DNA of 64,000 nucleotides from a virus (taxonomy: Duplodnaviria > Heunggongvirae > Uroviricota > Caudoviricetes), in the IMG/VR virus record IMGVR_UViG_3300037504_000227, positions 11,201 through 75,200 of that record. One strand, 5' to 3'. Both the position numbers and the translations under genes were made by a program. A model generated the notes under the pieces. The model made no database searches, had not been told where the DNA came from, and saw only the letters and a program-made list of their open reading frames with translations. This document shows, piece after piece, positions 30,132 to 63,776 of this stretch. The number at the start of each line of letters is the position of its first letter. The first letter of the stretch is position 1.

Positions 30132-30140
30132 AAAATCCTC

Positions 30141-38576: not shown

Positions 38577-38614
38577 GCGCAGCAGCGAAGATGCGCCACG
38601 ACCCGGAACGCTGC

Positions 38615-39118: not shown

Positions 39119-39121
39119 TTG

Positions 39122-41174: not shown

Positions 41175-41205
41175 TCAATTTCTCCTGTAACCGCGATTAT
41201 GGGGG

Positions 41206-41805: not shown

Positions 41806-41830
41806 GTGTATTTCTCCAATTCGTTAAGCG

Positions 41831-42334: not shown

Positions 42335-42358
42335 TACCCAGCCCCCATAATGCTATTA

Positions 42359-42691: not shown

Positions 42692-43367
42692 TATTGTCCC
42701 ACCTATTGTACTGCCTGAAGTGTGCGTTCGTTATCCCGTTGATGCTGATATGCACACACTGAACGTTCATATCTAGATATGTTTTATACCCCTGCTCTTT
42801 CGCGTTAAGACAAAACAGAACATCCTCGCCTAGATTCTCTCCGTGTTTACCGAACCTTGGCTCTGGTATCACCTCAACAACCTCACGCTTGATTACAATT
42901 AGCCCGAACCCAATACAATCACACGGAATGATCGAGTCGTCATAATCCCCAACAAAATACGTGCTCTGGATAGGGACTTGTTGCTCCTGATGCCAATTGA
43001 GCACTGTCTGGCTGATGGATCTGGTCTTGTTGTCCGGCGTCATCTCAAATGCACAGGCCACAGGCACGTCGCGTCTTCCGTAGTACAACCCGCCTACAAT
43101 CGGCAAATTATCCTCAATCAGCCTCATAATAGAGTTGGGATGGATCGCCATGTCGCTGTCTATGAAGCACAAGTGTGTGGCGTCAGATTCTAGAAATGAC
43201 TCTGCAACCCACTCCCTGCCCTGATGGATGTAGGTAGGGCTACACGCTGCCCTGTAGACCTCAATTCCGTTTTGCTGAACGACACTCAACGCATTTGCAA
43301 CAGTGTCAACGTGGTCCCAGAACGCAATGCGCTCCCGCAACGTGCCGACAAATAACTTGATATCCAT
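42681..43367 (-). CDS. GT-A-fold glycosyltransferase-like protein
   Basis: FIDSDMAI DxD-like motif; paralogous to 50540-51208. Confidence 0.4.
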   Translation of the reverse strand: MDIKLFVGTLRERIAFWDHVDTVANALSVVQQNGIEVYRAACSPTYIHQGREWVAESFLESDATHLCFIDSDMAIHPNSIMRLIEDNLPIVGGLYYGRRDVPVACAFEMTPDNKTRSISQTVLNWHQEQQVPIQSTYFVGDYDDSIIPCDCIGFGLIVIKREVVEVIPEPRFGKHGENLGEDVLFCLNAKEQGYKTYLDMNVQCVHISINGITNAHFRQYNRWDNNDQ

Positions 43368-43387
43368 CTAGCTTATCTCCGATTTTA

Positions 43388-44704
43388 TCAAACTGTGGAA
43401 GGCGATTCAAGGTTGTGTTCAAAGCCCAGAACACGTTCTGCTTTCTCTGTACTGATTAGTTGATCTGGCACCTCTTGATCTGGATATTCTTGTTGCACGA
43501 ACGCTTCAACGTCCACGCAATCAGGTGGATAACGGTCACAAATGTTAAACGCCTCGTACCAGAACTCTTGTTCTGATTCAACAGCAAGGACGATGGCCTG
43601 CACAGCATACTCTGGCGTGCAATTGGCAAAGAACGCGCCTTTGCGATAGGACGTATCGGTTTCCCAATCATAACCGTCAGGATATTGATCCTCTTTTGTG
43701 TTACAGGGAGCAAGGCGAAGCGCGACAGTTTCAACTAGATGGTTGGTGCCGTAGTATGCCAACAGTTGTTCTGCCATTACCTTGCTTTGGTTGTAGGAAT
43801 CCAACGCGCCACTGGATGCACCCTCTATGCTTGCTGGCGGTGTTTCCTCTGTGATGGGCAATTCTGGATATAGTTTGCCGTCGATGTTGCACCCGTAATA
43901 CGCTGTCGAACTGGTGTAAATCACCCGTTTCACGCCAGCTTGTTTAGCGCACCACAGGACATTATTTGTACCTAGGACATTAACGTTAATGTAGTCATCC
44001 ATTGTCCCTGAGTTGGGATGCGGGATGCCTGCGCAATGGACAACTGTATGACATCCTTGCATTGCCCCAAGTAAAGCTTGGCGGTCGAGGATGTTTTGTC
44101 CGTTCTTCAAATCATATCCCACAGCGCCACCCAGCGCCTTCATGACCAAGCTACCAATCTTCCCAGCGCTGCCAGTCACCAATGTAGCTTGCTCTCTTGC
44201 TTCGACTAACATATCTGTGTCTCCGTGTTTCACGTATGCCTCCTCAATATCAAGCCGCTGCGCTCTATTGAACCCTGCCTCTATTAGACATTCCTCAAGA
44301 AACTCAAAAGTGAATACTGATTTATGTTCTGTCCCGGGCGATCCTTCGTCCATCCAGAACAGCTTCCGATTGAGCCATATACCAAGATTGACAGACTCCA
44401 TTGCGTCTATTTCGCCAGACGTGTACAAATCGACAATCAAATCAAAGTCGTGTGTCTGGACTTTCAGCATACCTGTGGGCTTCAACACACGATGAAACTC
44501 TTTCAGAAACTCAATTGTATCTGTCCAAGGGATATGCTCTAAAACATGTGACAGGAGAATTTCGTCGCAGGAATTGGACAAGAATGGCAAGTTGAATCCA
44601 TCTGCTACCAAATCGACATCAGGATATACTTGCCAGTCTACGTGTATATATCCTAGTGTTGGATATCTGCCAGATCCAATGTCAAGACGTATACCATTCG
44701 ACAA
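43388..44704 (-). CDS. bifunctional class I SAM methyltransferase / NAD(P)-dependent sugar epimerase-dehydratase (SDR)
   Basis: N-terminal LDIGSG...ILLSHVLEHI; C-terminal Rossmann VTGSAGKIGSLV. Confidence 0.55.
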   Translation of the reverse strand: MSNGIRLDIGSGRYPTLGYIHVDWQVYPDVDLVADGFNLPFLSNSCDEILLSHVLEHIPWTDTIEFLKEFHRVLKPTGMLKVQTHDFDLIVDLYTSGEIDAMESVNLGIWLNRKLFWMDEGSPGTEHKSVFTFEFLEECLIEAGFNRAQRLDIEEAYVKHGDTDMLVEAREQATLVTGSAGKIGSLVMKALGGAVGYDLKNGQNILDRQALLGAMQGCHTVVHCAGIPHPNSGTMDDYINVNVLGTNNVLWCAKQAGVKRVIYTSSTAYYGCNIDGKLYPELPITEETPPASIEGASSGALDSYNQSKVMAEQLLAYYGTNHLVETVALRLAPCNTKEDQYPDGYDWETDTSYRKGAFFANCTPEYAVQAIVLAVESEQEFWYEAFNICDRYPPDCVDVEAFVQQEYPDQEVPDQLISTEKAERVLGFEHNLESPSTV

Positions 44705-45632
44705 GCTTGGCTATCCCTTCTGGCAACGGTGTAGGCTCAAAGTCTGACACAATCGCCTTCATTCTGGATACGTCACACATTCGTGCTGGATACCCATCTG
44801 GATACGACGTGTCAAAGAAAGCCTCTTTCTCTGTTCCGAGTGTGCCCTGAATAATCTCTAGCAGTTCCCGAATAGATACAACCTCCCCGCTTGCCACGTT
44901 GATTGGATAGGGCAATGGGCCACTCTCTGCCAGCTTCATTGTGACTCTGGCGGCGTCCTCAGCAAACATAAATTCCCTGATCTGTTTGCCAGTCCCAAAA
45001 ACGTGCATTCTATCTTGCTCTAAACACTTGCGGATCAGCGCCGGGATGACGTGAGATCGGTCGTGCCTGAACTCGTCTCCAATTCCGTACAGGTTGGTGT
45101 AGCGCGTCATAATGATGGGCAACCCATATTCTTCGTGTGCCCATAGAGCATAACGCTCCCCCATTCTCTTTGCCCATCCGTACCCTGCATTGGTTGGCTC
45201 TGGCTCCTTGCTATGTCCTGTCTCTTCTTGAGATGGATATGCATACTCAGGGGCGTAAACACAGACAGTGGAGCAACAGTGGAACATTTTTGCCTTACCT
45301 TCAATTGCCATTTTCAAAGGCTCAACTTGTAGCCTGACATTCTCGTAGAACATATCTGCGTGGTGTTCGCGGTTATAGTGCATCCCTGTCACCTTGGCTG
45401 CCAGGTTAAACACCACATCCTTGTTCTCATACAACTTTGTATTATTCCAGTCCGCTGCGTCGCCCTCAAATACGTGAATATCAGGCGCAATGTCCTCAAT
45501 AAATTCCCACTTACCCCTAGAGAAATCGTCTAGGATCGTGACTCTTGCGCCCTGTTCAACCAACAATCGGCACAGGGCATTTCCCACCATCCCTGCGCCA
45601 CCAGTAACTAGTACGTCTTTGTTATTCCACAC
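44682..45632 (-). CDS. NAD-dependent nucleotide-sugar epimerase/dehydratase (extended SDR)
   Basis: VLVTGGAGMVGNALCRLL Rossmann motif and YGWAKRMGE (YxxxK). Confidence 0.7.
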   Translation of the reverse strand: MWNNKDVLVTGGAGMVGNALCRLLVEQGARVTILDDFSRGKWEFIEDIAPDIHVFEGDAADWNNTKLYENKDVVFNLAAKVTGMHYNREHHADMFYENVRLQVEPLKMAIEGKAKMFHCCSTVCVYAPEYAYPSQEETGHSKEPEPTNAGYGWAKRMGERYALWAHEEYGLPIIMTRYTNLYGIGDEFRHDRSHVIPALIRKCLEQDRMHVFGTGKQIREFMFAEDAARVTMKLAESGPLPYPINVASGEVVSIRELLEIIQGTLGTEKEAFFDTSYPDGYPARMCDVSRMKAIVSDFEPTPLPEGIAKLVEWYTS

Positions 45633-46422
45633 GCTGAATCTCCCTCAAATACGACCTGTAAATGTTCTCCTGAACCCACGGATGGATTGGGTACCTGTCT
45701 TCCCCAAGCCCGTGGAAGTGGTAGAAAACGATGGGGTATAACCCCTCAACCTTCCAACTCTCATAAGTGTACTGCATCTGGTTCCAGGGTGCTAAATTGC
45801 ACCCCAAGTGTTCTACAATATGCGCTCCATAATCTTGAGGCCAGTAATCCAAATATCCTTGCGTGCCACAGATTTGACCTCTTCCTGGCCCCGGACGCGG
45901 ATCTGTCCACACCAAGTCCCATTCGATACAGTTCTCAAGCCACTCGTTGACACAATCTCTCCCAATCTGTGTGTTCCTAAAATACGTCGCACCACCATTG
46001 TATACGCCTGTTCGTTTGGCTAAGTGCTGCAATTGGGGAGGGAATCTGTGGGGATGAACCGCAACGTCAGCAGTCTTGATCTCTCCAAAGAGAGGGCGAG
46101 GGCTATTGAAAAACCAAATGTCGCCATCGAGCATCATCACGCGCTCTAGGCCGACATCTAACAGAAACGCAGGGAAAGCAGGCTGGAACAACCAGATATA
46201 CTCTACATAGTTCCTGTTGTCTTTTTGCGCTGCGATCTCAGGCGTCTCAACCTTGTGCTTTGGTATGACGTGGATTCCGTGTCCCTGAGCAGCCTTATAG
46301 ACATCATCATCCAGCGCCAGCAAAAACAGTTCAGCTTTCGGCTCGTGCCTCCGTATCGACTGGAGCATTGTCAGCGTCCTCTTCCAATACCCCATGTCGC
46401 TCATCGTCGCAAACTGGTACAT
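45622..46422 (-). CDS. nucleotide-diphospho-sugar transferase-like protein (start uncertain)
   Basis: DGDIWFF motif; track ORF N-terminus overlaps upstream gene by ~270 nt, so internal Met chosen. Confidence 0.35.
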   Translation of the reverse strand: MYQFATMSDMGYWKRTLTMLQSIRRHEPKAELFLLALDDDVYKAAQGHGIHVIPKHKVETPEIAAQKDNRNYVEYIWLFQPAFPAFLLDVGLERVMMLDGDIWFFNSPRPLFGEIKTADVAVHPHRFPPQLQHLAKRTGVYNGGATYFRNTQIGRDCVNEWLENCIEWDLVWTDPRPGPGRGQICGTQGYLDYWPQDYGAHIVEHLGCNLAPWNQMQYTYESWKVEGLYPIVFYHFHGLGEDRYPIHPWVQENIYRSYLREIQRVE

Positions 46423-47107
46423 ACTTTTCAAACGTCTCCCTGCCAACATCCCATCCTTGCTTCGAGATGTCCTTGTTGGCTTTGTGTGTCTCAGATGTGT
46501 TGTCTGGTCGCTCGTGCCATAGATGGAATAGCCCTGGACCCTCAATCCACTTAATCTTGTGTGGCAGCCTGTTCGACAGGTCTGTGTCAATATATCCCCA
46601 TCCACTCATTCGTTCGTCGTACCCACCAGCGTCCATCAACGTTTCTCTGTGGAATACACCGAAGTCTCCAAGTGAAGTTAATGGGTGAAGCTCGCCATCC
46701 CAATCGTCAGAACAAAATCGCCAAGGGTTAATCTCTGCCATCGCCTCCGCACTTGCTTCCTCTGAAAGATCAAATCGCTGGTGGTAAAGTTGAGTTTCTG
46801 GCTCTAGTTCTGCATTAACTACAGCCAGCAGGTTAGGTGCCCATAGGCAATGACTGCACGCAATAATAATGTATTCTCCCTTGGCGTGCGCAATCCCGCA
46901 GTTGATCGCAGTCGGCTTGTGCCACTCATCAAGTGGCAAGTCAATAAACTTGACGCCCTTCTTTCTTTTCTTCTTGCCACTACAATTTACAACCAGAACT
47001 TCGTGCTCCGGGGCGTCAGCCTGCCATCCCAAACTTTTCAAGAGATAAGTAACACTCTTGTCCTTAAAGGCTGTCAATATGGTGAATTTCAATTCAAGGT
47101 CCTCCAA
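46331..47107 (-). CDS. glycosyltransferase-like protein
   Basis: ORF in glycan island. Confidence 0.35.
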   Translation of the reverse strand: MEDLELKFTILTAFKDKSVTYLLKSLGWQADAPEHEVLVVNCSGKKKRKKGVKFIDLPLDEWHKPTAINCGIAHAKGEYIIIACSHCLWAPNLLAVVNAELEPETQLYHQRFDLSEEASAEAMAEINPWRFCSDDWDGELHPLTSLGDFGVFHRETLMDAGGYDERMSGWGYIDTDLSNRLPHKIKWIEGPGLFHLWHERPDNTSETHKANKDISKQGWDVGRETFEKYVPVCDDERHGVLEEDADNAPVDTEARAES

Positions 47108-47949
47108 TGCACTGTGTCCAAATCGTACTTGCGCGTTACAGCTAAAGCTTCATCTTTGTAGATCTTCTTAAGCTTTTCCTCTAGGTCTGGATCTAGTGTC
47201 GGCTTCTTATTGCCAAATCTAGGCGACAGGATCTCCCTGTCAAACCAATACATCGCCTCGATAAATGTCTTGTCCGACTCGGATAGATTTATACCTTGCG
47301 TCACCCCGCCCCGACTGTATTCGCTATACCTGACGCTTTTTAGAATAAGCTCAAACCTTATTCGCTCTAATGAGTATATACCGGCTTGCGGACTGTTGCC
47401 GTTGAACTCTATGAACACACGACGCAAGGATAGAAGTTCATAGATCCTGTCCATTGCCTGTTGTGTGTCGTCAATCAACTCCTGGTGAGTCAGGACTAGG
47501 ACATCATCATAGCGACTTAATCCAGACGCATATCTTCCAAATTCTATCACTTCGTTAGACCTCGGCCAATGTTCCATCCTGTGCTCCAGAATGTCAGGCA
47601 GTCCTACGTTGATGGGTAGTACAGGTAGAAGCCCGGTCCTCATATAGTGATGATAGGCAGAGATCAAACGGTCGATGGGATCTCTCAAGACAGCAATCAG
47701 TTTTGCTCCCTGATTTAGCTGTTTGAATTCCCCGCATCGCCCACACAGCAACGTGGGGCGCTTGATGCCCACAACCTTTAGATGGTTTGGAACCTCGCCC
47801 TCGAACAATTGTTCTTTTGTTGTTGCCCAGTCTGCGTTCCCTGTTTCCCCTTTGGGCATCCATACGTCTGGGTGTGTTCTGAGCAGTCGGTGCAAGAACG
47901 TGGTGCCTGATCGCGGCGCTCCAATAATCGCAAAGTCTACAGCGCCCAC
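47089..47949 (-). CDS. PAPS-dependent sulfotransferase
   Basis: 5'-PSB loop IIGAPRSGTTFLHRLL and 3'-PB motif VLRDPIDRLISAY. Confidence 0.7.
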   Translation of the reverse strand: MGAVDFAIIGAPRSGTTFLHRLLRTHPDVWMPKGETGNADWATTKEQLFEGEVPNHLKVVGIKRPTLLCGRCGEFKQLNQGAKLIAVLRDPIDRLISAYHHYMRTGLLPVLPINVGLPDILEHRMEHWPRSNEVIEFGRYASGLSRYDDVLVLTHQELIDDTQQAMDRIYELLSLRRVFIEFNGNSPQAGIYSLERIRFELILKSVRYSEYSRGGVTQGINLSESDKTFIEAMYWFDREILSPRFGNKKPTLDPDLEEKLKKIYKDEALAVTRKYDLDTVHWRTLN

Positions 47950-48860
47950 AGAATCTCCTCTCGAAGCCGCTTCTCTAGTTGATCCATTCTTTTTCTGATT
48001 GGCTCTGGATGCGTGCCACTGAACTCATATGTTCTGCATTCTCCCCTGAACGATGGTCTGAAGTGGTGTGGTCCATCAAACTTATTTTCCACTTCCTGCC
48101 TTTGCCCCAGCATCCAAGGCTTGTAGACTTTGTGCCAGTATTGCGAGATGGTCTTATTGGGACGAATGCCCTCATAATACTTCGTTTTCCAATACATCTG
48201 CATTGGGAAGATCTTGCCATAGTGATACAGCCTAATGCCCTCCTGGGCTAGCTCTTCATATCCTAAATGACGATGCTCCCCCCAGGGCTTCATTGTCTGT
48301 GGGTTCAGTATAGTTGGGGGGCGGTGAGTGAGCCACTTAGCGCCGGGGTAAACACGCTGGATTCTGTGCATCTCAAACGCCTCCTCCCATCCTCCAAGAA
48401 CTGTGTTGAAGCTCCCGAAAAATGAATAGGGTTTGAATCCCACAGAGTCATAGTTATCTAGATGATCAAGGACGGACTCAACATCCTCTGCCTTGTATAC
48501 TTCATCTGAGTCAATGTGCCAGATGTGAGTTTCGTCCTCTAGGTACTTCATATACTCATTGCACATCTCATCTTTCTCAGGCCATTGTCCAGTGATAACT
48601 TTAATCTTGGACTCTGGGTCAGGGAAGTTGCGCAGGATTTGTAGGGTGTCATCGAATGACGACAGGAATCCCTCAGAAACCCAGTGCTGCACTGGACCCT
48701 CAACCACAATGATTTGATGGGCGTATGGGTAGATGCTTTCTAGGCACGGCTCAAGGATATGATCTCCGTTGAACACAATCATCCCGAATGAGACTTTAGC
48801 CATCGTCCACTTCTTTGGCGCAGAGCTGGTACTTTTCCACCTTAGTCGTGAAGTCTTCAA
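47937..48860 (-). CDS. glycosyltransferase-like protein
   Basis: FGMIVFNGDHILEPCLESIYPYAHQIIVVEG resembles GT-A N-terminus. Confidence 0.4.
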   Translation of the reverse strand: MKTSRLRWKSTSSAPKKWTMAKVSFGMIVFNGDHILEPCLESIYPYAHQIIVVEGPVQHWVSEGFLSSFDDTLQILRNFPDPESKIKVITGQWPEKDEMCNEYMKYLEDETHIWHIDSDEVYKAEDVESVLDHLDNYDSVGFKPYSFFGSFNTVLGGWEEAFEMHRIQRVYPGAKWLTHRPPTILNPQTMKPWGEHRHLGYEELAQEGIRLYHYGKIFPMQMYWKTKYYEGIRPNKTISQYWHKVYKPWMLGQRQEVENKFDGPHHFRPSFRGECRTYEFSGTHPEPIRKRMDQLEKRLREEILWAL

Positions 48861-49011
48861 TCATCTTTGCTGTGACAATGCGCTCTATTTTGATCATGCC
48901 AAATGTATCCGTGTCGAGCTCCAGCCTGACATGCGTCACATATTTAGAATCTATCCCAAGAGCCTCTAATAGCTCTGGTACAATCTCGTCGTGTATTGTA
49001 ATAACACTCAT
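48796..49011 (-). CDS. hypothetical small protein
   Basis: ORF. Confidence 0.3.
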   Translation of the reverse strand: MSVITIHDEIVPELLEALGIDSKYVTHVRLELDTDTFGMIKIERIVTAKMIEDFTTKVEKYQLCAKEVDDG

Positions 49012-49012
49012 T

Positions 49013-49573
49013 TCAAAACTCCCAATCGTATCTACGCATCAGCGTAAAGCATCCAATTCCATAATACCAAGGCTCTGTAGTTGGTTCCTCTCTCATTGCA
49101 ACCTCAATTGGCGCAGGGTTCCATTTGCCTTCGCGCTTTACATATCCTGTACTGTGTATGACCATATATCCCCACAGCAGCCTTGGCAGTCGATGTTTCC
49201 CATACACTCTGTGCATCGGGCTGAACACAGAATCTATTCCAACAGGGATAGTGAGGATCATTGTTGCCCCTGGCTCCATGATTTCCAAGAGCTTCCTCAT
49301 TCCCCATATGTCTCCTTCTGACAGGCTCGTCTCCACGTCGTATCGTCCCGCCAGTCCAAAGTGCTCGATACTAGACACATTTAGAACCCAGTTGAACTTA
49401 TCTGCTGGCATATAATTCAACAGGTCGCCGTGGACAAACTCAACCCCACGCGGAACATGGGGCTTCTGTAACCCAATGGCAGTCACATCATACCCACGAT
49501 CACTAGCGATTTTCGATAGGGGAGCGTTCTCTGACGGTCCGATGTCGAGTAGTCGCCCGCCGCCAGGGGGCAA
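49013..49573 (-). CDS. class I SAM-dependent methyltransferase (FkbM-like)
   Basis: RLLDIGPSEN motif I. Confidence 0.5.
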   Translation of the reverse strand: MPPGGGRLLDIGPSENAPLSKIASDRGYDVTAIGLQKPHVPRGVEFVHGDLLNYMPADKFNWVLNVSSIEHFGLAGRYDVETSLSEGDIWGMRKLLEIMEPGATMILTIPVGIDSVFSPMHRVYGKHRLPRLLWGYMVIHSTGYVKREGKWNPAPIEVAMREEPTTEPWYYGIGCFTLMRRYDWEF

Positions 49574-49623
49574 AACATTCTTGGCATACCCCCACTCTAC
49601 CAGCCTGTCTCCTGATAAGTCCC

Positions 49624-50340
49624 TTAGTTCAGAAATGGTATGTCTCCTGATTTGTACTGTTCCTCAGTGATAAGTGGGAACTCTGGACAAGCAAACGCGC
49701 CCCATCCCCACTTGCCAAACACCTTGTTGTTGTCCTCTCTCGCTTTGTACTGTGCTCTTAGATCATCCTGGTGCCTTGAGTGGTCAATGATTGTGTGCGG
49801 AGATGCCTCAACAGTGTACCCCTTACTCCATATGGTCAGTGACAGATGCGGGTCACCACCATAAGTCCGTGACAGATTGCCCCACCATCCACAGTGTTTC
49901 CCCAACCACTTCCGTGTCATCCCGAAGTTGGCATACGTTCTTCCACAGGCCTGCTTGATTACATATTGCCCTTTTGTCCCAGGCTCTTTGTGAGGGAATG
50001 CAAGCTGTCCTATGGTTGGGTTGTGGTCCAGATACGATGCATCTCGACACAGGTTACCGAACATCACGCAGTCGTCGTTGACGTGAACGACGTATTTCCC
50101 CCTGGCAATCCTGAACCCTGTGTTGAAGGCAGGGATTGCCCCGACCAACTTGCCCTGAGCAAACAGGTTTACATCGTCTTGCTTTTTGCACCATTCAAGC
50201 GTGTCATCCTCAGATCCCCCATCGACTACAACGATCTCGTATGGGGAGTACGCGATGCTTTCTCTAACGCTCTCTATACAAGGCTCAAGTAGCTCAAGCC
50301 TGTTGTATGTGGCAATGACGACAGAGATGCGAGGGTTCAC
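49624..50340 (-). CDS. family 2 glycosyltransferase
   Basis: ISVVIATYNRLELL...EIVVVDGGSEDDT. Confidence 0.7.
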   Translation of the reverse strand: MNPRISVVIATYNRLELLEPCIESVRESIAYSPYEIVVVDGGSEDDTLEWCKKQDDVNLFAQGKLVGAIPAFNTGFRIARGKYVVHVNDDCVMFGNLCRDASYLDHNPTIGQLAFPHKEPGTKGQYVIKQACGRTYANFGMTRKWLGKHCGWWGNLSRTYGGDPHLSLTIWSKGYTVEASPHTIIDHSRHQDDLRAQYKAREDNNKVFGKWGWGAFACPEFPLITEEQYKSGDIPFLN

Positions 50341-56103: not shown

Positions 56104-56964
56104 ATGGGAAGATCCCCCAAGTATGATGCTCAAGAAGCGCTGTGTATTTATGAAGAGGAAGGTACGTATGCCGCCGTTGCCAGAGCGTTTGGATGTAGTC
56201 AATCGTCTGCTACACAAGCTGTTCGTCGCGCCCAAGGTGTGTGCTTGTTTTGTGGAGACGAAACCGTTGAAGGTCGCTCGTTTTGCGAGAAGCATTTGAA
56301 GGTTCAACGTGAGAATTCCCGCAAACTATATCATCGTAGAAAGTTAAACGGCATCTGCCCCAACTGTGGCAAGAAATCCAACAGAGATGGTACGCTTTGC
56401 CGAGAGTGTGCCGACAAAAACACTCAACACACAATGAAGAGCGGCAACAAGGCGCGCGACCAAGGACTATGCTTCAATTGCCGGTCAAGCCCACTGTCAG
56501 AAAGATCTGACTGGCTGTGTGAGACATGTCTAGATAAAACAAATAGGAGAACCAAGGCTCGTCGCGAAGAATTGTTGGATGCAGGAATCTGCATTCGTTG
56601 CAGAGAAGCTCCGTCTACAGACGAAAACAAATCCTATTGTCAAGAGTGTAGGGAGATAGTTAACGAAGCCAAGCGTCTCAAAAACAGCAACTCTGAGTGG
56701 GCAATGAATCGTCGTCGAGCGATGAAAGAAAACGGTCATAGATGTCAGATATGTGGAGAGAAAGCCAAGGTGGGGCATCACATTGATGAAAGTGGAAACA
56801 CAGACAATCCAAATGATGCGATTGACAACATTGCTGTTTTGTGCTGGCCTTGCCACGGCAGACTTACAGCAGCTCTTGAATTGTTAAAGTTAGATAATAT
56901 TGAGTATATCTTGAGGCTGTTGGCGGAGTCTCCGCACAACAACCTGCAAGATTATCTCAATTAA
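56104..56964 (+). CDS. HNH endonuclease with multiple zinc ribbons
   Basis: CQICGEKAKVGHHIDESGNTDNPNDAIDNIAVLCWPCHGR; seven CxxC pairs upstream. Confidence 0.7.
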   Translation: MGRSPKYDAQEALCIYEEEGTYAAVARAFGCSQSSATQAVRRAQGVCLFCGDETVEGRSFCEKHLKVQRENSRKLYHRRKLNGICPNCGKKSNRDGTLCRECADKNTQHTMKSGNKARDQGLCFNCRSSPLSERSDWLCETCLDKTNRRTKARREELLDAGICIRCREAPSTDENKSYCQECREIVNEAKRLKNSNSEWAMNRRRAMKENGHRCQICGEKAKVGHHIDESGNTDNPNDAIDNIAVLCWPCHGRLTAALELLKLDNIEYILRLLAESPHNNLQDYLN

Positions 56965-57932
56965 TCGGCGATTCCTGAGAAGAAAGCCCCTGCATCGGCA
57001 ACCAAGGACTTCTGATCGTAGTACGACCGAACCTCAACCACGTCGCCCATGCGTTCCTCGTCTCGATACTTGCGCATCCACTGCGGTCCGCCGCCTGCAT
57101 TTGAGCTGGTGCGCCAAACGAAGGTGTACCCTGCGGCTGGCTCCATCAACATCGGGTTGTCAGGAACGTACAGCAACAGAGCGTCGTCGTCCCAGTTGGC
57201 ACTTAGTGTCACAGAAGCCTCTGCAAGCCCTTCCTCGTCAGCAGTGTAAACGCTGGTGCCGACTAGAACCTTGCTTAGACCGAACATTGAAGCCAGTAGA
57301 TCCTGGGTTGCAATGCCGCGCTCAGTGTACTTAATACGGTCAAGCACGTCTGGGTGATCCAGAAGCTTGTCGTAGGTCAGGTCGCCAAGGACCAAGCAGT
57401 TTGGGTCACGCCCGATTAGGCGTCGAACGGTACGCTTGTAGGTGCGAACATCCACGATTGGATCGCTGGTACCGAAGTCGCTCCACTTGTTGACCGTGCT
57501 CCCACCTGTGATATCCGTGGTCCAAACACTGGTGCTCCAGAAGTCGGACACGAATGATCGCTCCCTGCGAAGCATTAGGCGATCAGTCACCCACTTGGTA
57601 GCATCGCGGTCGATATTGAATGGGTCGTCCTGGTTTGCGCGCTGGTCGTCAGAGATGAAGTAGCGCAGACCGAAGCGGTCGCAGTAGTATGTGGTGGTGG
57701 TCGTCACGTCGAATCCTGCGAACGGCGCAGTGCCGCCCTCAGAGATTCGGTCCGCCATATCACGGAACCAGTGTGACTTATCGTACTCAGGAACGATGTC
57801 GGTTTGCTTATCCACCATCACAGTTGGGAAAATCTCATCTGCGATGTAACGTGGATTCGAATATGCGACGGAAATATCCGTCAGCATCTTATTTACATGT
57901 AGATCACTTGCTGATGGCATGAAAACTGGCAT
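56961..57932 (-). CDS. major capsid protein (lambda gpE-like)
   Basis: 323 aa; order protease/scaffold - decoration - capsid mirrors lambda C-Nu3-D-E. Confidence 0.6.
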   Translation of the reverse strand: MPVFMPSASDLHVNKMLTDISVAYSNPRYIADEIFPTVMVDKQTDIVPEYDKSHWFRDMADRISEGGTAPFAGFDVTTTTTYYCDRFGLRYFISDDQRANQDDPFNIDRDATKWVTDRLMLRRERSFVSDFWSTSVWTTDITGGSTVNKWSDFGTSDPIVDVRTYKRTVRRLIGRDPNCLVLGDLTYDKLLDHPDVLDRIKYTERGIATQDLLASMFGLSKVLVGTSVYTADEEGLAEASVTLSANWDDDALLLYVPDNPMLMEPAAGYTFVWRTSSNAGGGPQWMRKYRDEERMGDVVEVRSYYDQKSLVADAGAFFSGIAD

Positions 57933-61900: not shown

Positions 61901-61929
61901 TTGACACGCCTGGCGAATTGTGGTATACT
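61901..61929 (+). promoter_or_regulatory. sigma70 promoter TTGACA-17-TATACT with extended TG, drives tRNA array
   Basis: near-consensus hexamers with TGTGG extension. Confidence 0.6.
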
Positions 61930-61940
61930 GTATCACGCGA

Positions 61941-62012
61941 GGGTCGGTAGTTTAATCGGTAAAACCTCCGTCTCCAACACGGAAGATGCTGACTCAGTTT
62001 CAGCCCGGCCTG
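61941..62012 (+). tRNA. tRNA-Trp(CCA)
   Basis: hand-folded cloverleaf, anticodon loop CTCCAAC; T-loop CTCAGTT non-canonical. Confidence 0.5.
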
Positions 62013-62017
62013 CCTAG

Positions 62018-62090
62018 AGGGGATTAGCTCAGGTGGAAGAGCGCTGGCTTTGGGAGTCAGAGGTCGCCAGATCATGGCTGGCATCCCCTA
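62018..62090 (+). tRNA. tRNA-Pro(TGG)
   Basis: acceptor AGGGGAT/ATCCCCT, D GCTC-AGGTGGAA-GAGC, loop TTTGGGA; T-loop ATCATGG. Confidence 0.55.
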
Positions 62091-62095
62091 TAAAC

Positions 62096-62168
62096 TGCTC
62101 CGTAGCTCAATTGGAGGAGCCGCCGCCTGTTAAGCGGAGGGTTGCTGGATCATAGCCAGTCGGAGCAG
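62096..62168 (+). tRNA. tRNA-Asn(GTT)
   Basis: acceptor TGCTCCG/CGGAGCA, loop CTGTTAA; T-loop ATCATAG. Confidence 0.55.
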
Positions 62169-62196
62169 CCTGAATAGAACCTTAACACTTGAACAA

Positions 62197-62268
62197 GCGT
62201 CTATAATTTAGTCGGTAGAATGCCTGCTTGCCATGCAGGCTGCGCGGGTTCAAGTCCCGCTAGACGCT
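62197..62268 (+). tRNA. tRNA-Gly(GCC)
   Basis: acceptor GCGTCTA/TAGACGC, loop TTGCCAT, canonical T-arm GCGGG-TTCAAGT-CCCGC. Confidence 0.6.
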
Positions 62269-62336
62269 CTTTGTCTGGGAGAGAAATGTCGGAGTTGCCG
62301 ACACTAAATGCATACCTGGACTCTCTCAGGCGCTAT

Positions 62337-62412
62337 TCCCGGATAGCCAAGTCTGGTAAGGCGCTGCTCTGATGAGGCAGTAATTGCGTGGGTTCAAATC
62401 CCACTCCGGGGA
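62337..62412 (+). tRNA. tRNA-Ile(GAT) (tentative)
   Basis: acceptor TCCCGGA/TCCGGGG, loop CTGATGA, T-arm GTGGG-TTCAAAT-CCCAC; 3-bp D stem, 7-nt variable loop. Confidence 0.4.
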
Positions 62413-62531
62413 CTCTCCGCGTGGGCTAATTGCCTTAAAGTCGCAGGGATGGCCTCCTGAGATGTGCGAGGTCGAGCGAGAGTGCTTTAGCGGGCATTTG
62501 AGCAAGACAGGCGACCGCACCGCGAGAACGA

Positions 62532-62604
62532 GGGCCTGTAGATCAGTCAGGAGATCACTTCTTTTGCAAAGAAGAGGACACCGGGGCGGAGCCGGTCAGG
62601 TCCA
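62532..62604 (+). tRNA. tRNA-Ala(TGC) (non-canonical T-loop)
   Basis: perfect 73-nt cloverleaf count, D GATC-AGTCAGGA-GATC, loop TTTGCAA; T-loop GGCGGAG lacks TPsiC. Confidence 0.4.
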
Positions 62605-62710
62605 CTAAGGACATTTGGGTTCAATTCCCATTCAGATGCCCTAGGAGCATCTGAGCGCTTCTGTTCAGGCCAAATAGAAGCGTCAGTCTGGAATGACTGT
62701 GTCCGAGAAA

Positions 62711-62781
62711 TGCGAGGTAACTCAGAGGTAGAGTGCTGGTTTCATGTGCCAGAAGCCTCGGTTCAATTCCGAGCCTCGCTA
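62711..62781 (+). tRNA. tRNA-Met/Ile2(CAT) (tentative)
   Basis: loop TTCATGT, T-arm CTCGG-TTCAATT-CCGAG, 1-72 mismatch. Confidence 0.4.
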
Positions 62782-62784
62782 TAA

Positions 62785-62858
62785 GCGGGTGTGGTCTAGT
62801 GGTCGAGGATGCTTGCCTGTCAAGCAAGAGGACGTCGGTTCAAATCCGTCCACCCGCG
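62785..62858 (+). tRNA. tRNA-Asp(GTC)
   Basis: acceptor GCGGGTG/CACCCGC, anticodon stem CTTGC/GCAAG, loop CTGTCAA, T-loop TTCAAAT. Confidence 0.55.
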
Positions 62859-62863
62859 CCTAG

Positions 62864-62935
62864 AGGCGCTTTGTGTAGTGGCTATCACACAGGGCTTTGA
62901 CCCCTGGGACACTGGTTCAAATCCAGTAGCGCCTG
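62864..62935 (+). tRNA. tRNA-Gln(TTG)
   Basis: acceptor AGGCGCT/AGCGCCT, anticodon stem CAGGG/CCCTG, loop CTTTGAC, T-arm ACTGG-TTCAAAT-CCAGT. Confidence 0.55.
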
Positions 62936-62938
62936 TTT

Positions 62939-63012
62939 GCGCCCGTAGTGGAATCGGTTAACACGCCGGCCTCTCAAGTCGGAGATTGCGGGATCGTACC
63001 CCGCCGGGCGTA
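62939..63012 (+). tRNA. tRNA-Glu(CTC)
   Basis: acceptor GCGCCCG/CGGGCGT, loop CTCTCAA; T-loop ATCGTAC non-canonical. Confidence 0.5.
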
Positions 63013-63013
63013 C

Positions 63014-63071
63014 TGGGATGTGGCCTAACGGTATGGCGTGTAAGATTCAGGTTCAAGTCCTGGCATCCTAG
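63014..63071 (+). other. truncated tRNA-like element (acceptor + D-arm + T-arm, no anticodon arm)
   Basis: TGGGATG/CATCCTA acceptor pairing, T-arm TCAGG-TTCAAGT-CCTGG, only 58 nt. Confidence 0.35.
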
Positions 63072-63074
63072 CCT

Positions 63075-63095
63075 AGCGCGCCCAGCGCTTTCCTA
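63075..63095 (+). terminator. weak terminator hairpin AGCGC-gccca-GCGCT + TTCCT
   Basis: inverted repeat after last tRNA. Confidence 0.3.
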
Positions 63096-63122: not shown

Positions 63123-63776
63123 ATGTATCTCAATCGTTTCTCAGTCGTAATCCCTGAAGGTAGGGAAGTAGATGACGGATACGTGGAAATGTCCCACGGG
63201 CAGACCTACACAATCCGTCTGAAGAATAGTCGCAGTGTCCGATGCAACGCTAGGGTAGAGGTTGATGGCGAACACGTCGGCACGTTCAGGATCGGAGCGC
63301 ACAGCAACATCACGCTAGAACGTCCCTCTCACGACCACGGACAGTTCACCTTCTACAAGGCAGGGACGCAGGAAGCCCGGCAGGCTCAGCTTGATCGAGT
63401 CAGCGTTCACGACCTGGGGTTGGTTTCAGTGACGTTCACGCCAGAGAAGAGGGCGAAGCCTCTCAAGTGGCGACATGCATCCAACCATTCATATCCATCT
63501 GACCCGTGGTATGATCCCAGTGGAACAGCTCGTGGGCGGAGCGTGTCTTGCTACTACACCAACACCCTAGAGGGCAACATGCGGGGCATGACGAAAGGTG
63601 CTTCCGCAGGCGGCACTGGACTCTCTGGACACAGTGATCAGCAGTTCTATCAGGCAGACGCAATGACGCTGGACTACACACAAGCCACCAGCATCAACCT
63701 TCGCCTGGTTACGCGGGATAGTGGACCTCGACCTTTGACGCATCGGTCGAACCCAACTCCGCCGCCAGTATTGTAA
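63123..63776 (+). CDS. hypothetical protein
   Basis: AAGGAGG RBS, 217-aa ORF. Confidence 0.45.
   Translation: MYLNRFSVVIPEGREVDDGYVEMSHGQTYTIRLKNSRSVRCNARVEVDGEHVGTFRIGAHSNITLERPSHDHGQFTFYKAGTQEARQAQLDRVSVHDLGLVSVTFTPEKRAKPLKWRHASNHSYPSDPWYDPSGTARGRSVSCYYTNTLEGNMRGMTKGASAGGTGLSGHSDQQFYQADAMTLDYTQATSINLRLVTRDSGPRPLTHRSNPTPPPVL

What the first reader, a model, noticed from the sequence alone, without database searches (positions are those of the whole stretch)
61901..63095. Tightly packed 10-tRNA array with recurrent non-canonical T-loops plus a truncated tRNA-like tail element
From one near-consensus promoter, ten tRNAs (Trp, Pro, Asn, Gly, Ile, Ala, Met/Ile2, Asp, Gln, Glu) follow with 3-6-nt spacers. 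Several have A at T-loop position 54 (ATCATGG, ATCATAG, ATCGTAC). The tRNA-Ala T-loop GGCGGAG has no TPsiC at all. The array ends with a 58-nt element that has acceptor and T arms but no anticodon arm. Atypical T-loops could affect modification and elongation-factor binding, or could evade host tRNA-targeting nucleases.
Basis: partly seen in the sequence, partly recalled or inferred. Interest (0 to 1): 0.55.

Follow-up and report, generated by a model that had tools for sequence, protein, structure and literature searches.

The report
Phage tRNA genes with flipped T-loops
This is the first block of a large tRNA gene region in a phage genome, and half of its ten otherwise intact tRNAs have replaced a nearly universal base pair in the T-loop, a change that also recurs in tRNAs of unrelated phages, including lab phages of E. 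coli and Mycobacterium, and is therefore probably functional.

Summary
A near-consensus sigma-70 promoter (61901-61929) is followed by ten intact, co-oriented tRNA genes (61941-63012). A 57-nt tRNA-like element without an anticodon arm follows (63014-63070).

The "3-6 nt spacers" claim is wrong for four gaps of 28, 68, 119 and 106 nt. The tRNA region also continues past the window end.

The swapped A54/U58 T-loop is not private to this phage. The exact T-arm of the window's tRNA-Glu occurs in 14 distinct viral tRNAs of several isotypes. The same loop type is annotated in Mycobacterium phage Asterius (Gly, Asp) and in T5-like phages (Phe). There the T-arm is identical between E. coli and Aeromonas phages although the rest of the tRNA has diverged.

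Positions 54 and 58 covary strongly. The window tRNAs keep all stems, U8, A14, G18-G19, C56 and R57, and U55 in four of the five.

Best reading: these are working tRNAs with an alternative 54-58 pair. Why that pair is favoured is unknown, and nuclease evasion is untested. The tail is most likely a tRNA remnant.

The parts
61901..61929 (+). Sigma-70-type promoter-like site: TTGACA, 17-nt spacer, TATACT, with TG upstream of the -10 hexamer. tRNA-Trp starts 12 nt downstream.
   Evidence: Consensus scan, 11 of 12 matches. Transcription was not tested.
61941..62012 (+). tRNA-Trp(CCA). The T-arm is GCUGA-CUCAGUU-UCAGC (loop 61993-61999), giving A53-U61, C54 and G58. Discriminator G73.
   Evidence: ARAGORN; Rfam tRNA 53.0 bits; cloverleaf parse with all stems paired.
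62018..62090 (+). tRNA-Pro(UGG). The T-loop is AUCAUGG (62071-62077), giving A54/U58.
   Evidence: ARAGORN; Rfam 51.4 bits.
62096..62168 (+). tRNA-Asn(GUU). The T-loop is AUCAUAG (62149-62155), giving A54/U58.
   Evidence: ARAGORN; Rfam 44.9 bits.
62197..62268 (+). tRNA-Gly(GCC) with the canonical T-loop UUCAAGU.
   Evidence: (67.6 bits).
62269..62336 (+). Spacer X1 (68 nt). It folds into a 12-bp stem enclosing a 6-bp hairpin. In relative L008, a mini tmRNA-like element sits at the same place, between Gly(GCC) and Ile(GAU).
   Evidence: Fold z-score -2.9. L008:1000-1084 scores 43.6 bits against the Rfam tmRNA model. No sequence similarity between the two was found.
62337..62412 (+). tRNA-Ile(GAU) with a canonical T-loop. 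The anticodon loop CUGAUGA has G37 instead of the usual A37.
   Evidence: (56.1 bits).
62413..62531 (+). Spacer X2 (119 nt). It has weak similarity to the 5' part of the tRNA(CAU) gene and may be a remnant of a duplication.
   Evidence: the repeat finder families D9 and D11. The fold is not significant (z = -0.3). Local alignments do not exceed shuffles.
62532..62604 (+). tRNA-Ala(UGC) with G3-U70 and A73. The T-loop is GGCGGAG (62585-62591), giving G54, G55 and G58. C56 and R57 are kept.
   Evidence: Rfam 49.4 bits. ARAGORN misses it. The minimum-energy fold is the cloverleaf, z = -3.2.
62605..62710 (+). Spacer X3 (106 nt). It folds stably into a five-way junction. The first hairpin is a perfect T-arm look-alike (UGGG-UUCAAUU-CCCA, 62616-62630). 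That is followed by an acceptor-like 3' strand and G-CC, as at real tRNA ends. It is probably tRNA debris turned into a structured spacer. Its function is unknown.
   Evidence: Fold z-score -4.9, with 0 of 200 shuffles folding as well. T-arm repeat family D1. No homologue in 366 kb of other phage tRNA arrays using a covariance model built from it.
62711..62781 (+). tRNA(CAU); whether it reads as Met or Ile2 is unresolved. It has a U1-U72 mismatch, G2-C71, C3-G70 and A73. The anticodon loop UUCAUGU has G37. The T-loop is canonical.
   Evidence: (60.8 bits).
62785..62858 (+). tRNA-Asp(GUC) with a canonical T-loop.
   Evidence: (67.4 bits).
62864..62935 (+). tRNA-Gln(UUG) with a canonical T-loop.
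   Evidence: (61.3 bits).
62939..63012 (+). tRNA-Glu(CUC). The T-arm is GCGGG-AUCGUAC-CCCGC (loop 62993-62999), giving A54/U58. The identical T-arm occurs in 14 distinct tRNA sequences of other viral contigs.
   Evidence: (62.0 bits).
63014..63070 (+). tRNA-like element without an anticodon arm. It has a 7-bp acceptor stem (UGGGAUG/CAUCCUA), U8, and a 3-bp D-stem with a GG-containing loop. An 8-nt linker replaces the anticodon arm and variable loop. The T-arm is canonical (UCAGG-UUCAAGU-CCUGG), followed by G-CC. It is most likely the remnant of a tRNA gene. Its 5' half resembles the tRNA-Cys of related phages.
   Evidence: Fold (z = -0.2, so the energy alone is not informative). Descriptor scan: it is one of only 3 such elements in 2.06 Mb, against 0-1 in shuffles. 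Best local match is tRNA-Cys of L016. No Rfam hit at E <= 1.
63123..63776 (+). 217-aa ORF of unknown function with an AAGGAGG ribosome-binding site, 52 nt after the tail. In relatives L008 and L011 its homologue lies inside a 33-tRNA region.
   Evidence: No Pfam or PHROG family matched.

Best explanation
The locus is the promoter-proximal block of a large tRNA gene region in a tailed phage.

Transcription and processing (inferred). It is probably transcribed from one strong sigma-70-type promoter. Host RNase P and 3' nucleases would cut it into ten tRNAs, which then receive CCA, since none encodes it.

The tRNAs (shown). All ten are structurally intact. In five of them the intraloop pair that closes the T-loop, U54-A58, has been replaced. 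It is reversed to A54-U58 in Pro, Asn and Glu, changed to C54-G58 in Trp, and changed to G54-G58 in Ala. The residues that dock the T-loop onto the D-loop are kept: C56, R57, G18 and G19 in all five, and U55 in four.

Most likely reading (inferred). These are working decoder tRNAs built on an alternative T-loop pair, not decaying genes. The A54-U58 form is a recurrent, conserved alternative in phage tRNA arrays of unrelated lineages. Such tRNAs cannot carry m5U54 or m1A58 and are probably poor TruB substrates. They would therefore differ from host tRNAs at the elbow, which many proteins read. What selects for this is not known.

The rest of the block. The long spacers and the 57-nt tail are best read as remnants of rearranged tRNA genes. 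Some of them are now stable structures that may still guide processing.
For: Intactness. All ten pass the Rfam tRNA threshold. Acceptor, anticodon and T stems are fully paired apart from three isolated mispairs (Met 1:72, Asn 27:43 and one Asp T-stem pair). The D-stems are paired apart from the innermost pair in Ile, Gln and Glu. U8, A14, GG in the D-loop and U33 are present in all. Identity elements fit: G3-U70 and A73 in Ala, G73 in Trp and Asn.

The changes are specific. Positions 54 and 58 change together, while U55, C56 and R57 stay.

Recurrence elsewhere:
- The 17-nt T-arm of the window's tRNA-Glu matches 38 sites in IMG/VR. Twenty of these lie inside ARAGORN tRNAs for Gly, Glu, Leu, Lys and a CUA anticodon, in contigs with 13-34 tRNAs in the stretch fetched.
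- Mycobacterium phage Asterius has tRNA-Gly(GCC) and tRNA-Asp with the loop ATCGTAA (57.7 and 50.7 bits). Similar tRNA-Gly sequences were hit in 172 further mycobacteriophage records.
- T5-like phages such as HildyBeyeler have tRNA-Phe with GTTGG-ATCGTTA-CCAAC. The distant Aeromonas phage TS3 has the same T-arm although the rest of its tRNA has diverged (alignment A2).

Covariation. Among 396 unique tRNAs, the 54/58 combinations are UA 360, AU 25, AA 8, and UU, GG and CG one each. Fisher p = 1e-31, or 1.6e-15 without the T-arm used as search bait.

Codon fit. The codons that match Pro-UGG, Asn-GUU, Ala-UGC, Glu-CUC and Ile-GAU exactly are the commonest synonymous codons in 28 ORFs of the window.

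Phage context. The window carries a major capsid protein, a tape measure protein and an integrase. Relatives carry 33 tRNAs in partly the same gene order.
Against: - No expression, processing or charging data exist.
- The nearest relatives available (L008, L011) have canonical T-loops in the corresponding tRNAs. The changes are therefore recent in this lineage, and their conservation within it cannot be tested.
- The only other copy of this phage is identical.
- The block also holds evident gene debris (the tail, and the T-arm fragment in X3), which shows that decay is going on here.
- The Trp (C54-G58 plus A53-U61) and Ala (G55) versions have no counterpart, or only one, in the other arrays. 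These two are the weakest candidates for function.
- The sample of other phages was partly selected with the window's own T-arm as bait, so frequencies are biased.
- ARAGORN under-detects deviant T-loops. It misses Ala here and Phe in HildyBeyeler.
- The host is unknown, so the codon argument is one-sided.
Confidence: 0.6

Rival explanations
1. The five deviant tRNAs are on their way to becoming pseudogenes. Phage tRNA genes are under weak selection, and this block is being rearranged and eroded. On this view the odd T-loops, the tail and the spacer fragments are all products of decay.
For: - The block contains a tRNA lacking its anticodon arm, and an orphan T-arm with an acceptor strand.
- The deviant tRNAs have five of the six lowest Rfam scores in the array: 44.9-53.0 bits for four of them and 62.0 for Glu.
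- ARAGORN rejects Ala.
- Relatives L008 and L011 have canonical loops in every one of their 33 tRNAs.
Against: - Decay would hit stems and other conserved bases as well. Instead the changes are confined to 54 and 58 (plus 55 in Ala, and the 53-61 pair in Trp), and the stems remain paired.
- The same double change arose in three tRNAs with different T-stems.
- It recurs, and is conserved, in unrelated phages.
Confidence: 0.2
2. The T-loop pair was changed under selection to escape a factor that reads the canonical T-loop. That factor could be a host or competitor tRNase that cuts at T54-Psi55, or a defence system that senses or modifies the elbow. Phage translation would then continue when host tRNAs are attacked.
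For: - A tRNase that cuts in the T-loop between the conserved T and Psi is known (CdiA-CT E479; PMC9086364).
- Phage tRNAs are documented to escape anticodon nucleases through loop changes (PMC10264068; PMC11555353).
- The window phage also carries an RNA ligase (PF09414, 32922-33575). T4 is known to use an RNA ligase to repair cleaved tRNA; that link is my own knowledge, not tested here.
- The recurrence and conservation of A54/U58 in several phage lineages argue that some selection is acting.
Against: - No anti-phage nuclease that targets the T-loop was found in the papers read.
- Only a minority of the tRNAs in each array carry the change.
- The isotypes involved (Asp, Glu, Gly, Asn, Lys, Phe) do not match a known nuclease specificity that I could verify.
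- Nothing in the window links the tRNAs to a defence or counter-defence gene.
Confidence: 0.15
3. The deviant tRNAs and the tail are not decoders. They would be tRNA mimics with another role: decoys for tRNA-binding host proteins, partners of the phage's Ro60/Y-RNA system, or processing punctuation for the operon.
For: - The same phage encodes a Ro60 orthologue (7287-8906; TROVE and vWA_Ro60 domains).
- Two upstream RNAs have tRNA-like acceptor, D and T arms and a long insert in place of the anticodon arm (6868-6988 and 7059-7178). The phage clearly uses tRNA mimicry.
- The tail cannot decode.
- Similar armless elements sit in two other phage arrays.
Against: - The five deviant tRNAs keep normal 7-nt anticodon loops with U33, 5-bp anticodon stems and the aminoacylation identity elements.
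- Their anticodons match the phage's preferred codons.
- The Y-RNA-like genes have canonical T-loops and lie 55 kb away.
- The tail has no Ro-binding stem and no Rfam YrlA match.
Confidence: 0.05

Closest known systems
Phage tRNA gene clusters (T5-like Demerecviridae, Bxz1-type mycobacteriophages, and the 33-tRNA contigs L008/L011)
   Same: - Many co-oriented tRNA genes are interspersed with small ORFs and structured spacers in a large tailed-phage genome.
- The gene order is partly shared with L008: Gly-X-Ile; Ala(UGC)-X-Met-Asp; Gln-Glu; His-Leu(UAG).
- A minority of tRNAs with A54/U58 loops is also present in Asterius, TS3 and HildyBeyeler.
   Different: - The share of deviant T-loops is higher here: 5 of 12 known tRNAs, against 1-2 of 23-31 in the cultured phages examined and 11 of 34 in contig L110.
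- C54-G58 (Trp) was seen nowhere else in the sample.
- The closest relatives by the neighbouring protein have only canonical loops.
A54-A58 T-loops of eukaryotic initiator tRNA and of some eukaryotic tRNA-Ala(AGC)
   Same: These are natural, functional tRNAs in which U54 is replaced by A and the 54-58 pair has a different geometry. A purine at position 60 often goes with it (PMC7912444; PMC7566577). Three of the window's five deviant loops also have G60.
   Different: Those tRNAs keep A58 and are eukaryotic. The authors state that such pairs are not seen in bacterial or archaeal tRNAs. Here position 58 is U, so the pair is reversed, and the genes belong to a phage with bacterial-type promoter and ribosome-binding signals.
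Suppressor tRNAs selected in vivo with altered 54-58 pairs (Zagryadskaya, Doyon and Steinberg, Nucleic Acids Res 2003)
   Same: As I recall the abstract, functional clones carried U54-A58, G54-A58 or G54-G58. The purine-purine pairs were modelled as mimics of the reverse-Hoogsteen pair. G54-G58 is what the window's tRNA-Ala has.
   Different: I could only verify the paper's existence and title from a reference list. The text is not held, so the content is from memory. Those were laboratory selections in one suppressor tRNA. I do not recall A54-U58 being among them.
Anticodon-loop variants of phage tRNAs that escape anticodon nucleases
   Same: In both cases phage-encoded tRNAs differ from host tRNAs at normally conserved loop positions. 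The change is proposed to make them insensitive to host tRNA-targeting defences (PMC10264068, PMC11555353).
   Different: The change here is in the T-loop, not the anticodon loop. Those papers do not mention the T-loop, and no matching nuclease is known.
tRNA-like RNAs without a decoding arm (YrlA-type Y RNAs, the tmRNA tRNA-like domain, mascRNA)
   Same: The tail has acceptor, D and T arms but no anticodon arm, as these mimics do. The window itself has two YrlA-like candidates next to a Ro60 gene. Relative L008 has an 85-nt tmRNA-like domain inside its array.
   Different: The tail has no Ro-binding stem, no G3-U70 and no tag-coding part. It matches no Rfam family at E <= 1. No homologue was found anywhere.

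Membership tests
tRNA (Rfam RF00005) | Cloverleaf with a 7-bp acceptor stem and D, anticodon and T arms; score at or above the family's gathering threshold of 29 bits. | tested here: met
   All ten score 44.9-67.6 bits. The stem-by-stem parse shows near-perfect pairing. ARAGORN finds nine of the ten.
tRNA (Rfam RF00005) | Conserved T-loop U54-U55-C56-R57-A58, with G53-C61 closing the stem. | tested here: not met
   Not met in 5 of 10. Pro, Asn and Glu have A54/U58. Trp has C54/G58 and A53-U61. Ala has G54, G55 and G58. The other five are canonical.
tRNA (Rfam RF00005) | Other invariant positions: U8, A14, G18-G19 and U33. | tested here: met
   Present in all ten.
tRNA (Rfam RF00005) | The RNA is processed, receives CCA, is aminoacylated and is used on the ribosome. 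| not testable with these tools
   No expression data are available. None of the genes encodes CCA.
Phage tRNA gene cluster | Several co-oriented tRNA genes in a phage genome, with related clusters in related phages. | tested here: met
   Capsid, tape measure and integrase genes are in the window. There are 10 tRNAs in the window and 2 more just beyond it. L008 and L011 have 33 tRNAs in partly the same order.
Phage tRNA gene cluster | Transcription of the block as one unit from the upstream promoter. | tested here: inconclusive
   There is one strong consensus match, and no other promoter-like site on the + strand inside the array. Two weak terminator-like hairpins lie inside it. No transcript data exist.
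Phage tRNAs with a reversed A54-U58 T-loop pair (a class defined here from the comparison) | Loop A54-U55-C56-R57-U58-N-N on a 5-bp T-stem closed by G53-C61, in an otherwise canonical tRNA with G18-G19. | tested here: met
   The window's Pro, Asn and Glu fit. There are 25 unique examples in the sample, and all 33 A54 tRNAs have GG in the D-loop. Annotated examples occur in Asterius, TS3 and HildyBeyeler.
tRNA pseudogene or remnant (for the tail, 63014-63070) | Recognisable tRNA parts with an essential arm missing, and no conservation in relatives. | tested here: met
   The anticodon arm and variable loop are replaced by 8 nt. There is no homologue in IMG/VR by exact pattern or among 2.06 Mb of loci. 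Absence of function cannot be shown with these tools.
YrlA-type Y RNA (for the tail) | A tRNA-like module joined to a long stem that carries the Ro-binding site, usually next to a Ro60 gene. | tested here: not met
   There is only an 8-nt linker where the stem would be. No Rfam YrlA match was found at E <= 1. The Ro60 gene is 55 kb away.
tmRNA tRNA-like domain (for the tail and for spacers X1-X3) | G3-U70 in the acceptor stem, a T-arm, no true D-stem, and a tag reading frame or at least helix 2. | tested here: not met
   ARAGORN finds no tmRNA and Rfam gives no tmRNA hit in the window. The tail has its G-U pair at 2:71, not 3:70. L008 does have such an element.

The most novel reading that the evidence does not exclude
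Reversing or replacing the U54-A58 pair may be a general strategy by which phages make a subset of their own tRNAs distinguishable from host tRNAs at the elbow. This would protect those tRNAs from a still unidentified defence, toxin or modification enzyme directed at the T-loop. Alternatively, it would let a phage factor spare them while host tRNAs are inactivated. This window would be an extreme case, with five of twelve tRNAs recoded in three different ways. The same mechanism would operate in T5-like coliphages and Bxz1-type mycobacteriophages, where it can be tested directly.
Probability: 0.18. Interest if true: 0.8.

Novelty: new variant of a known kind. Interest (0 to 1): 0.5.

Why it matters
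The U54-A58 pair is treated as a near-universal feature of tRNA, and single changes to it abolish function in test systems (PMC4117946). This window led to the observation that a reversed A54-U58 pair is a recurrent and conserved alternative in phage-encoded tRNAs. It occurs in tRNAs already annotated in phages of E. coli K-12 and Mycobacterium smegmatis. I found no description of this in the papers searched.

If these tRNAs work, two things follow. They widen what counts as a functional T-loop. They also show that gene finders under-call such tRNAs: ARAGORN missed two of them here.

If the change is adaptive, it points to a T-loop-directed layer of the conflict between phages and hosts over tRNA. 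So far that conflict has been documented for the anticodon loop, the anticodon arm and the 3' tail. The question can be tested with existing phage-host pairs.

Tried and rejected
1. A tRNA interrupted by tRNA-Ala (an intron or nested gene), or a circularly permuted tRNA, in X2-Ala-X3. An 11-bp helix (62492-62502 with 62631-62641) encloses tRNA-Ala, and a T-arm look-alike follows it. When the two flanks are joined, however, they give no D or anticodon arm. The helix plus T-stem is also too long for a tRNA minihelix. Rejected.

2. A tmRNA or two-piece tmRNA in the spacers. ARAGORN and Rfam find none in the window. The tmRNA-like element of L008 has no detectable counterpart here.

3. Close relatives, to test conservation.
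- Protein-guided scans of IMG/VR with the flanking ORFs gave none or only distant loci without tRNAs.
- Exact 21-23-nt patterns from tRNA-Pro and from the tail gave nothing.
- The only contig with the same 217-aa protein is identical to the window.
- The best other homologue is 56% identical.

4. A covariance model of spacer X3 found only X3 itself in 366 kb of phage tRNA arrays.

5. T5 tRNA-Phe as a biochemical precedent. T5 tRNA-Phe is reported as a substrate of E. coli PheRS (PMC9976931). T5 itself, however, has a canonical T-loop. Only other T5-like phages carry the A54/U58 allele, so the precedent does not apply.

6. The 15-nt T-arm core of tRNA-Asn gave 80 hits in the fetched loci, none inside a tRNA. 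These are chance matches. They were used as a random-contig control: 0 of 28 tRNAs in those contigs were deviant.

7. A functional link between the 217-aa ORF family and tRNA arrays. Most loci with this gene have no tRNAs nearby. There is no general link.

8. Fold energy as evidence for the tail. The z-score is -0.2, which is not informative.


Full report
WHAT IS THERE

The window is part of a tailed-phage genome. It carries a major head protein (56961-57932), a tape measure protein (25174-28719), a DnaB-type helicase and an integrase. No close relative exists among 50,697 deposited phage genomes.

At 61901-61929 there is a promoter-like site, TTGACA-17 nt-TATACT with an upstream TG, matching 11 of 12 consensus positions. 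Twelve bases downstream the first of ten co-oriented tRNA genes begins.

ARAGORN calls nine of them. The Rfam tRNA model calls all ten at 44.9-67.6 bits, against a threshold of 29. This includes tRNA-Ala(UGC) at 62532-62604, which ARAGORN misses.

A position-by-position parse shows the following:
- Every acceptor stem is paired, except for a U1-U72 mismatch in the CAU tRNA.
- Anticodon and T stems are paired apart from two isolated mismatches.
- The D-stems are paired apart from the innermost pair in Ile, Gln and Glu.
- U8, A14, a GG pair in the D-loop and U33 are present in all ten.
- No gene encodes CCA.

- The genes are not uniformly tightly packed. Six junctions are 1-5 nt, but four spacers are 28, 68, 119 and 106 nt long.
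- tRNA-Trp also has a deviant T-arm: GCUGA-CUCAGUU-UCAGC, giving A53-U61, C54 and G58. Five of the ten tRNAs are therefore unusual, not four.
- The array is not complete. A second assembly of the same phage (L007, 100% identical over 6878 nt) runs 635 nt past the window end. It contains tRNA-His and tRNA-Leu(UAG), both with canonical T-loops.
- Relatives found through the 217-aa ORF downstream of the array (L008 from a 119-kb contig, and L011) carry 33 tRNAs around the homologous gene. The order is partly the same: Gly(GCC)-X-Ile(GAU); Ala(UGC)-X-Met-Asp; Gln(UUG)-Glu(CUC); His-Leu(UAG).

The finding is therefore the promoter-proximal block of a much larger tRNA region.

THE T-LOOPS

The five deviant loops are:
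- Pro: AUCAUGG
- Asn: AUCAUAG
- Glu: AUCGUAC
- Trp: CUCAGUU
- Ala: GGCGGAG

The other five in the window, and the two beyond it, are UUCRANN.

In the first three, U54 and A58 have swapped. In Trp they are C and G, and in Ala G and G. U55 is kept in four of the five. C56 and R57 are kept in all five, and so is the G18-G19 pair they dock with.

Both programs give the same boundaries, so the deviant loops are not an artefact of gene calling.

In 125 tRNAs from 91 related loci only two loops deviate, each at position 55 alone. Five of twelve against two of 125 gives p = 4e-5. The corresponding tRNAs of L008 are all canonical, although they are only 55-74% identical to the window's. The changes therefore arose in this lineage.

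THE KEY COMPARISON

I searched IMG/VR for the exact 17-nt T-arm of the window's tRNA-Glu, GCGGGATCGTACCCCGC. It matched at 38 sites. Twenty of them lie inside ARAGORN tRNAs for Gly(GCC), Gly(UCC), Glu(UUC), Glu(CUC), Leu(UAA), Lys(UUU) and a CUA anticodon. The contigs involved carry up to 34 tRNAs in the stretch fetched.

In those loci 80 of 297 tRNAs have loops other than UUCRANN. Many begin with A54: AUCGUAC, AUCGUAA, AUCGUUA, AUCAUUC, AUCGAAA, AUCGAUA. In a control set of contigs picked up by chance 15-mer matches, 0 of 28 are deviant.

Cultured phages show the same thing.
- Mycobacterium phage Asterius has tRNA-Gly(GCC) with GCGGG-AUCGUAA-CCCGU and tRNA-Asp with GCGGU-AUCGUAA-UCCGU. Both are annotated by the depositors and score 57.7 and 50.7 bits. 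A BLAST search with a tRNA-Gly of this type hit 173 mycobacteriophage records.
- Aeromonas phage TS3 and the E. coli K-12 phage HildyBeyeler, both T5-like, have tRNA-Phe with GUUGG-AUCGUUA-CCAAC. Sixty-seven deposited phages carry a tRNA-Phe at least 99% identical to HildyBeyeler's.
- An alignment of five T5-like tRNA-Phe genes (A2) is instructive. The four coliphage genes are identical except in the T-arm and one adjacent base. T5, phiLLS and DaisyDussoix have canonical loops.
- HildyBeyeler shares its A54/U58 T-arm exactly with the Aeromonas phage, whose tRNA has otherwise diverged at about a quarter of its positions. That is what a functional, selected or exchanged module looks like, not a decaying one.

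Over all 396 unique tRNAs collected, the 54/58 combinations are UA 360, AU 25, AA 8, and UU, GG and CG one each. U58 goes with A54 in 25 of 26 cases. This gives p = 1e-31, or 1.6e-15 after removing the T-arm used as bait.

The A54 tRNAs have varied T-stems. All have GG in the D-loop. They are concentrated in Asp, Glu, Gly, Asn, Lys and Phe. The window's Glu and Asn fit that pattern, while Pro is the only example of its isotype.

G54/G58 was seen once elsewhere, as GUCGGCA in a tRNA-Ser(GCU) found in L116 and L135. C54/G58 was seen only in the window.

This sample is biased by how it was gathered, and ARAGORN under-detects such tRNAs. The counts therefore show recurrence, not frequency.

WHAT IT MOST LIKELY IS AND DOES

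Shown:
- There are ten intact tRNA genes behind a consensus promoter.
- Five carry a specific replacement of the 54-58 pair.
- The A54-U58 form recurs and is conserved in unrelated phages.
- The codons read by exact pairing by Pro-UGG (CCA, 38%), Asn-GUU (AAC, 60%), Ala-UGC (GCA, 35%), Glu-CUC (GAG, 62%) and Ile-GAU (ATC, 46%) are the commonest synonymous codons in 28 ORFs of the window.

Inferred:
- The block is transcribed as one precursor and cut by host enzymes.
- The five tRNAs decode.
- The 54-58 pair still forms in an altered geometry.
- These tRNAs lack m5U54 and m1A58 and are poor substrates for the Psi55 synthase. This rests on what is established about how those enzymes recognise the T-loop.

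Literature context:
- U54-A58 tolerates no single change in a yeast suppressor tRNA (PMC4117946).
- The natural exceptions described are A54-A58 in eukaryotic initiator tRNA and in some eukaryotic tRNA-Ala. These are said to be absent from bacteria and archaea (PMC7912444; PMC7566577).
- A laboratory selection is reported to have yielded G54-A58 and G54-G58. I verified the title of that paper but recall its content from memory.
- I found no paper describing A54-U58 in phage tRNAs. The papers on phage tRNAs escaping host nucleases do not mention the T-loop.

WHY THE CHANGE WOULD BE FAVOURED

This is open. A toxin that cuts the T-loop between the conserved T and Psi exists. Phage tRNAs are known to escape anticodon nucleases. 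This phage also carries an RNA ligase (32922-33575).

Against it, no anti-phage T-loop nuclease is known to me, only some tRNAs in each array are changed, and nothing here tests it. I give the specific evasion reading about 0.15-0.2. I give the general reading, that these are working tRNAs with an alternative T-loop pair, about 0.6.

Decay is the main rival at about 0.2, chiefly because of the debris in the block and the two unique variants (Trp and Ala).

THE TAIL AND THE SPACERS

The tail (63014-63070) has these parts:
- a 7-bp acceptor stem
- U8
- a 3-bp D-stem with a GG-containing loop
- G26
- an 8-nt linker
- a canonical T-arm
- then G-CC

About 14 nt, essentially the anticodon arm, are missing. 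Its fold energy is unremarkable (z = -0.2). As a pattern, however, it is one of three such elements in 2.06 Mb of phage loci, against 0-1 in shuffles. The other two lie in or near tRNA arrays: Asterius L262:99-154 and L122:7883-7942.

Its 5' half resembles the tRNA-Cys of related phages. It matches no Rfam family and has no homologue. The simplest reading is a tRNA gene that lost its anticodon arm. It could still be cut by RNase P and so mark the 5' end of the downstream mRNA, but that is speculation.

Spacer X3 (62605-62710) folds very stably (z = -4.9). It starts with a perfect T-arm look-alike, followed by an acceptor-like strand and G-CC. X2 has weak similarity to the start of the CAU tRNA gene. 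X1 is a stable hairpin at the place where L008 has a small tmRNA-like element.

None of the spacers has a detectable homologue. I read them as rearrangement debris, some of it structured. The nested-tRNA, permuted-tRNA and tmRNA ideas did not hold.

VERDICT

The features are real. The description is partly inaccurate.

The array itself is an ordinary kind of thing: a new member of the phage tRNA clusters. The T-loop replacements are a new variant of tRNA. They turn out to be recurrent in phages and, as far as I could find, undescribed. They can be tested directly in model phage-host pairs.

Interest 0.5. It would be higher if the change proves adaptive.

Noticed in passing
window 6868-6988, 7059-7178 and 7287-8906 (+): A Ro60 orthologue (TROVE and vWA_Ro60 domains, 539 aa) is preceded by two RNAs. 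Each has a canonical tRNA-like acceptor stem, D-arm and T-arm, and a long insert where the anticodon arm would be. This is the architecture of bacterial YrlA-type Y RNAs. The first is preceded by a TTGACT-17-TAAGAT promoter-like site and ends in a run of U. Rfam calls the second one a tRNA (44.9 bits over 120 nt), and no YrlA hit is reported.
   Followed up: partly
window 29855-30180 (-), 30141-31220 (-), 31222-31288 (-): A group I intron (Rfam 81.4 bits) lies next to, or overlaps the end of, an ORF with an HNH endonuclease domain. An int-alpA RNA motif (51.8 bits) lies just upstream.
   Followed up: no
window 32922-33575 (+): A 217-aa ORF has an RNA ligase domain (PF09414, E = 2e-17). Together with the Ro60/Y-RNA genes and the large tRNA set, it suggests a phage heavily invested in RNA repair or RNA conflict.
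   Followed up: no
window 62337-62412 and 62711-62781: tRNA-Ile(GAU) and the CAU tRNA both have G37 where tRNAs reading A-starting codons almost always have A37 (125 of 134 in the sample). These two would therefore lack t6A37. The CAU tRNA also has a U1-U72 mismatch with G2-C71, C3-G70 and A73. This resembles the acceptor end of a bacterial initiator tRNA, but the tRNA lacks other initiator features.
   Followed up: partly
window 62012-62020, 62638-62645, 62858-62866, 63071-63076: The motif G-CC(C)-TAG follows the acceptor stem of Trp and Asp, the tail, and the T-arm fragment in X3. Asn is likewise followed by G-CC, but then by TGA. It may be a shared 3' processing signal or a partly encoded CCA.
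   Followed up: no
L007 7286-7449 (equivalent to about 64408-64571, beyond the window end): The same phage has tRNA-His(GUG) and tRNA-Leu(UAG) after a Mom-like gene. Both have canonical T-loops. The tRNA region continues past the window.
   Followed up: yes
L008 1000-1084 and L040 3299-3381: Related phage tRNA arrays contain an element of about 85 nt that matches both ends of the Rfam tmRNA model (43.6 and 32.6 bits, below the threshold of 47). The L008 element has a G3-U70 acceptor stem and a T-arm but no obvious tag reading frame, like a miniature tmRNA tRNA-like domain.
   Followed up: partly
L262 99-154 (Mycobacterium phage Asterius) and L122 7883-7942: Two further tRNA-like elements without an anticodon arm (54-60 nt: acceptor stem plus canonical T-arm). 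Both are unannotated. One lies 39 nt upstream of the first tRNA in the fetched stretch of the Asterius array.
   Followed up: no
L264 8997-9071, L265 7501-7575, L266 21-95, L267 21-95, L263 3264-3338: The tRNA-Phe genes of T5-like coliphages are identical except for the T-arm and one adjacent base. The T-arm comes in at least four versions: TTCAATT, TTCGATT, TTCGATA and the A54/U58 form ATCGTTA. This looks like exchange of the T-arm as a cassette, or strong diversifying selection on it.
   Followed up: partly
window 63123-63776; L093-L102: The 217-aa ORF after the array belongs to a family of unknown function with a conserved GGTGLSGHS motif. It lies inside tRNA arrays in L008 and L011. It is also present, without tRNAs nearby, in many metagenome contigs and in cyanobacterial genomes (Tolypothrix, Scytonema, Spirulina, Plectonema).
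   Followed up: partly
window 36181-50340 (-): A long run of glycosyltransferase, sugar epimerase/dehydratase, methyltransferase and sulfotransferase genes. That is an unusual amount of carbohydrate-modifying capacity for a phage.
   Followed up: no
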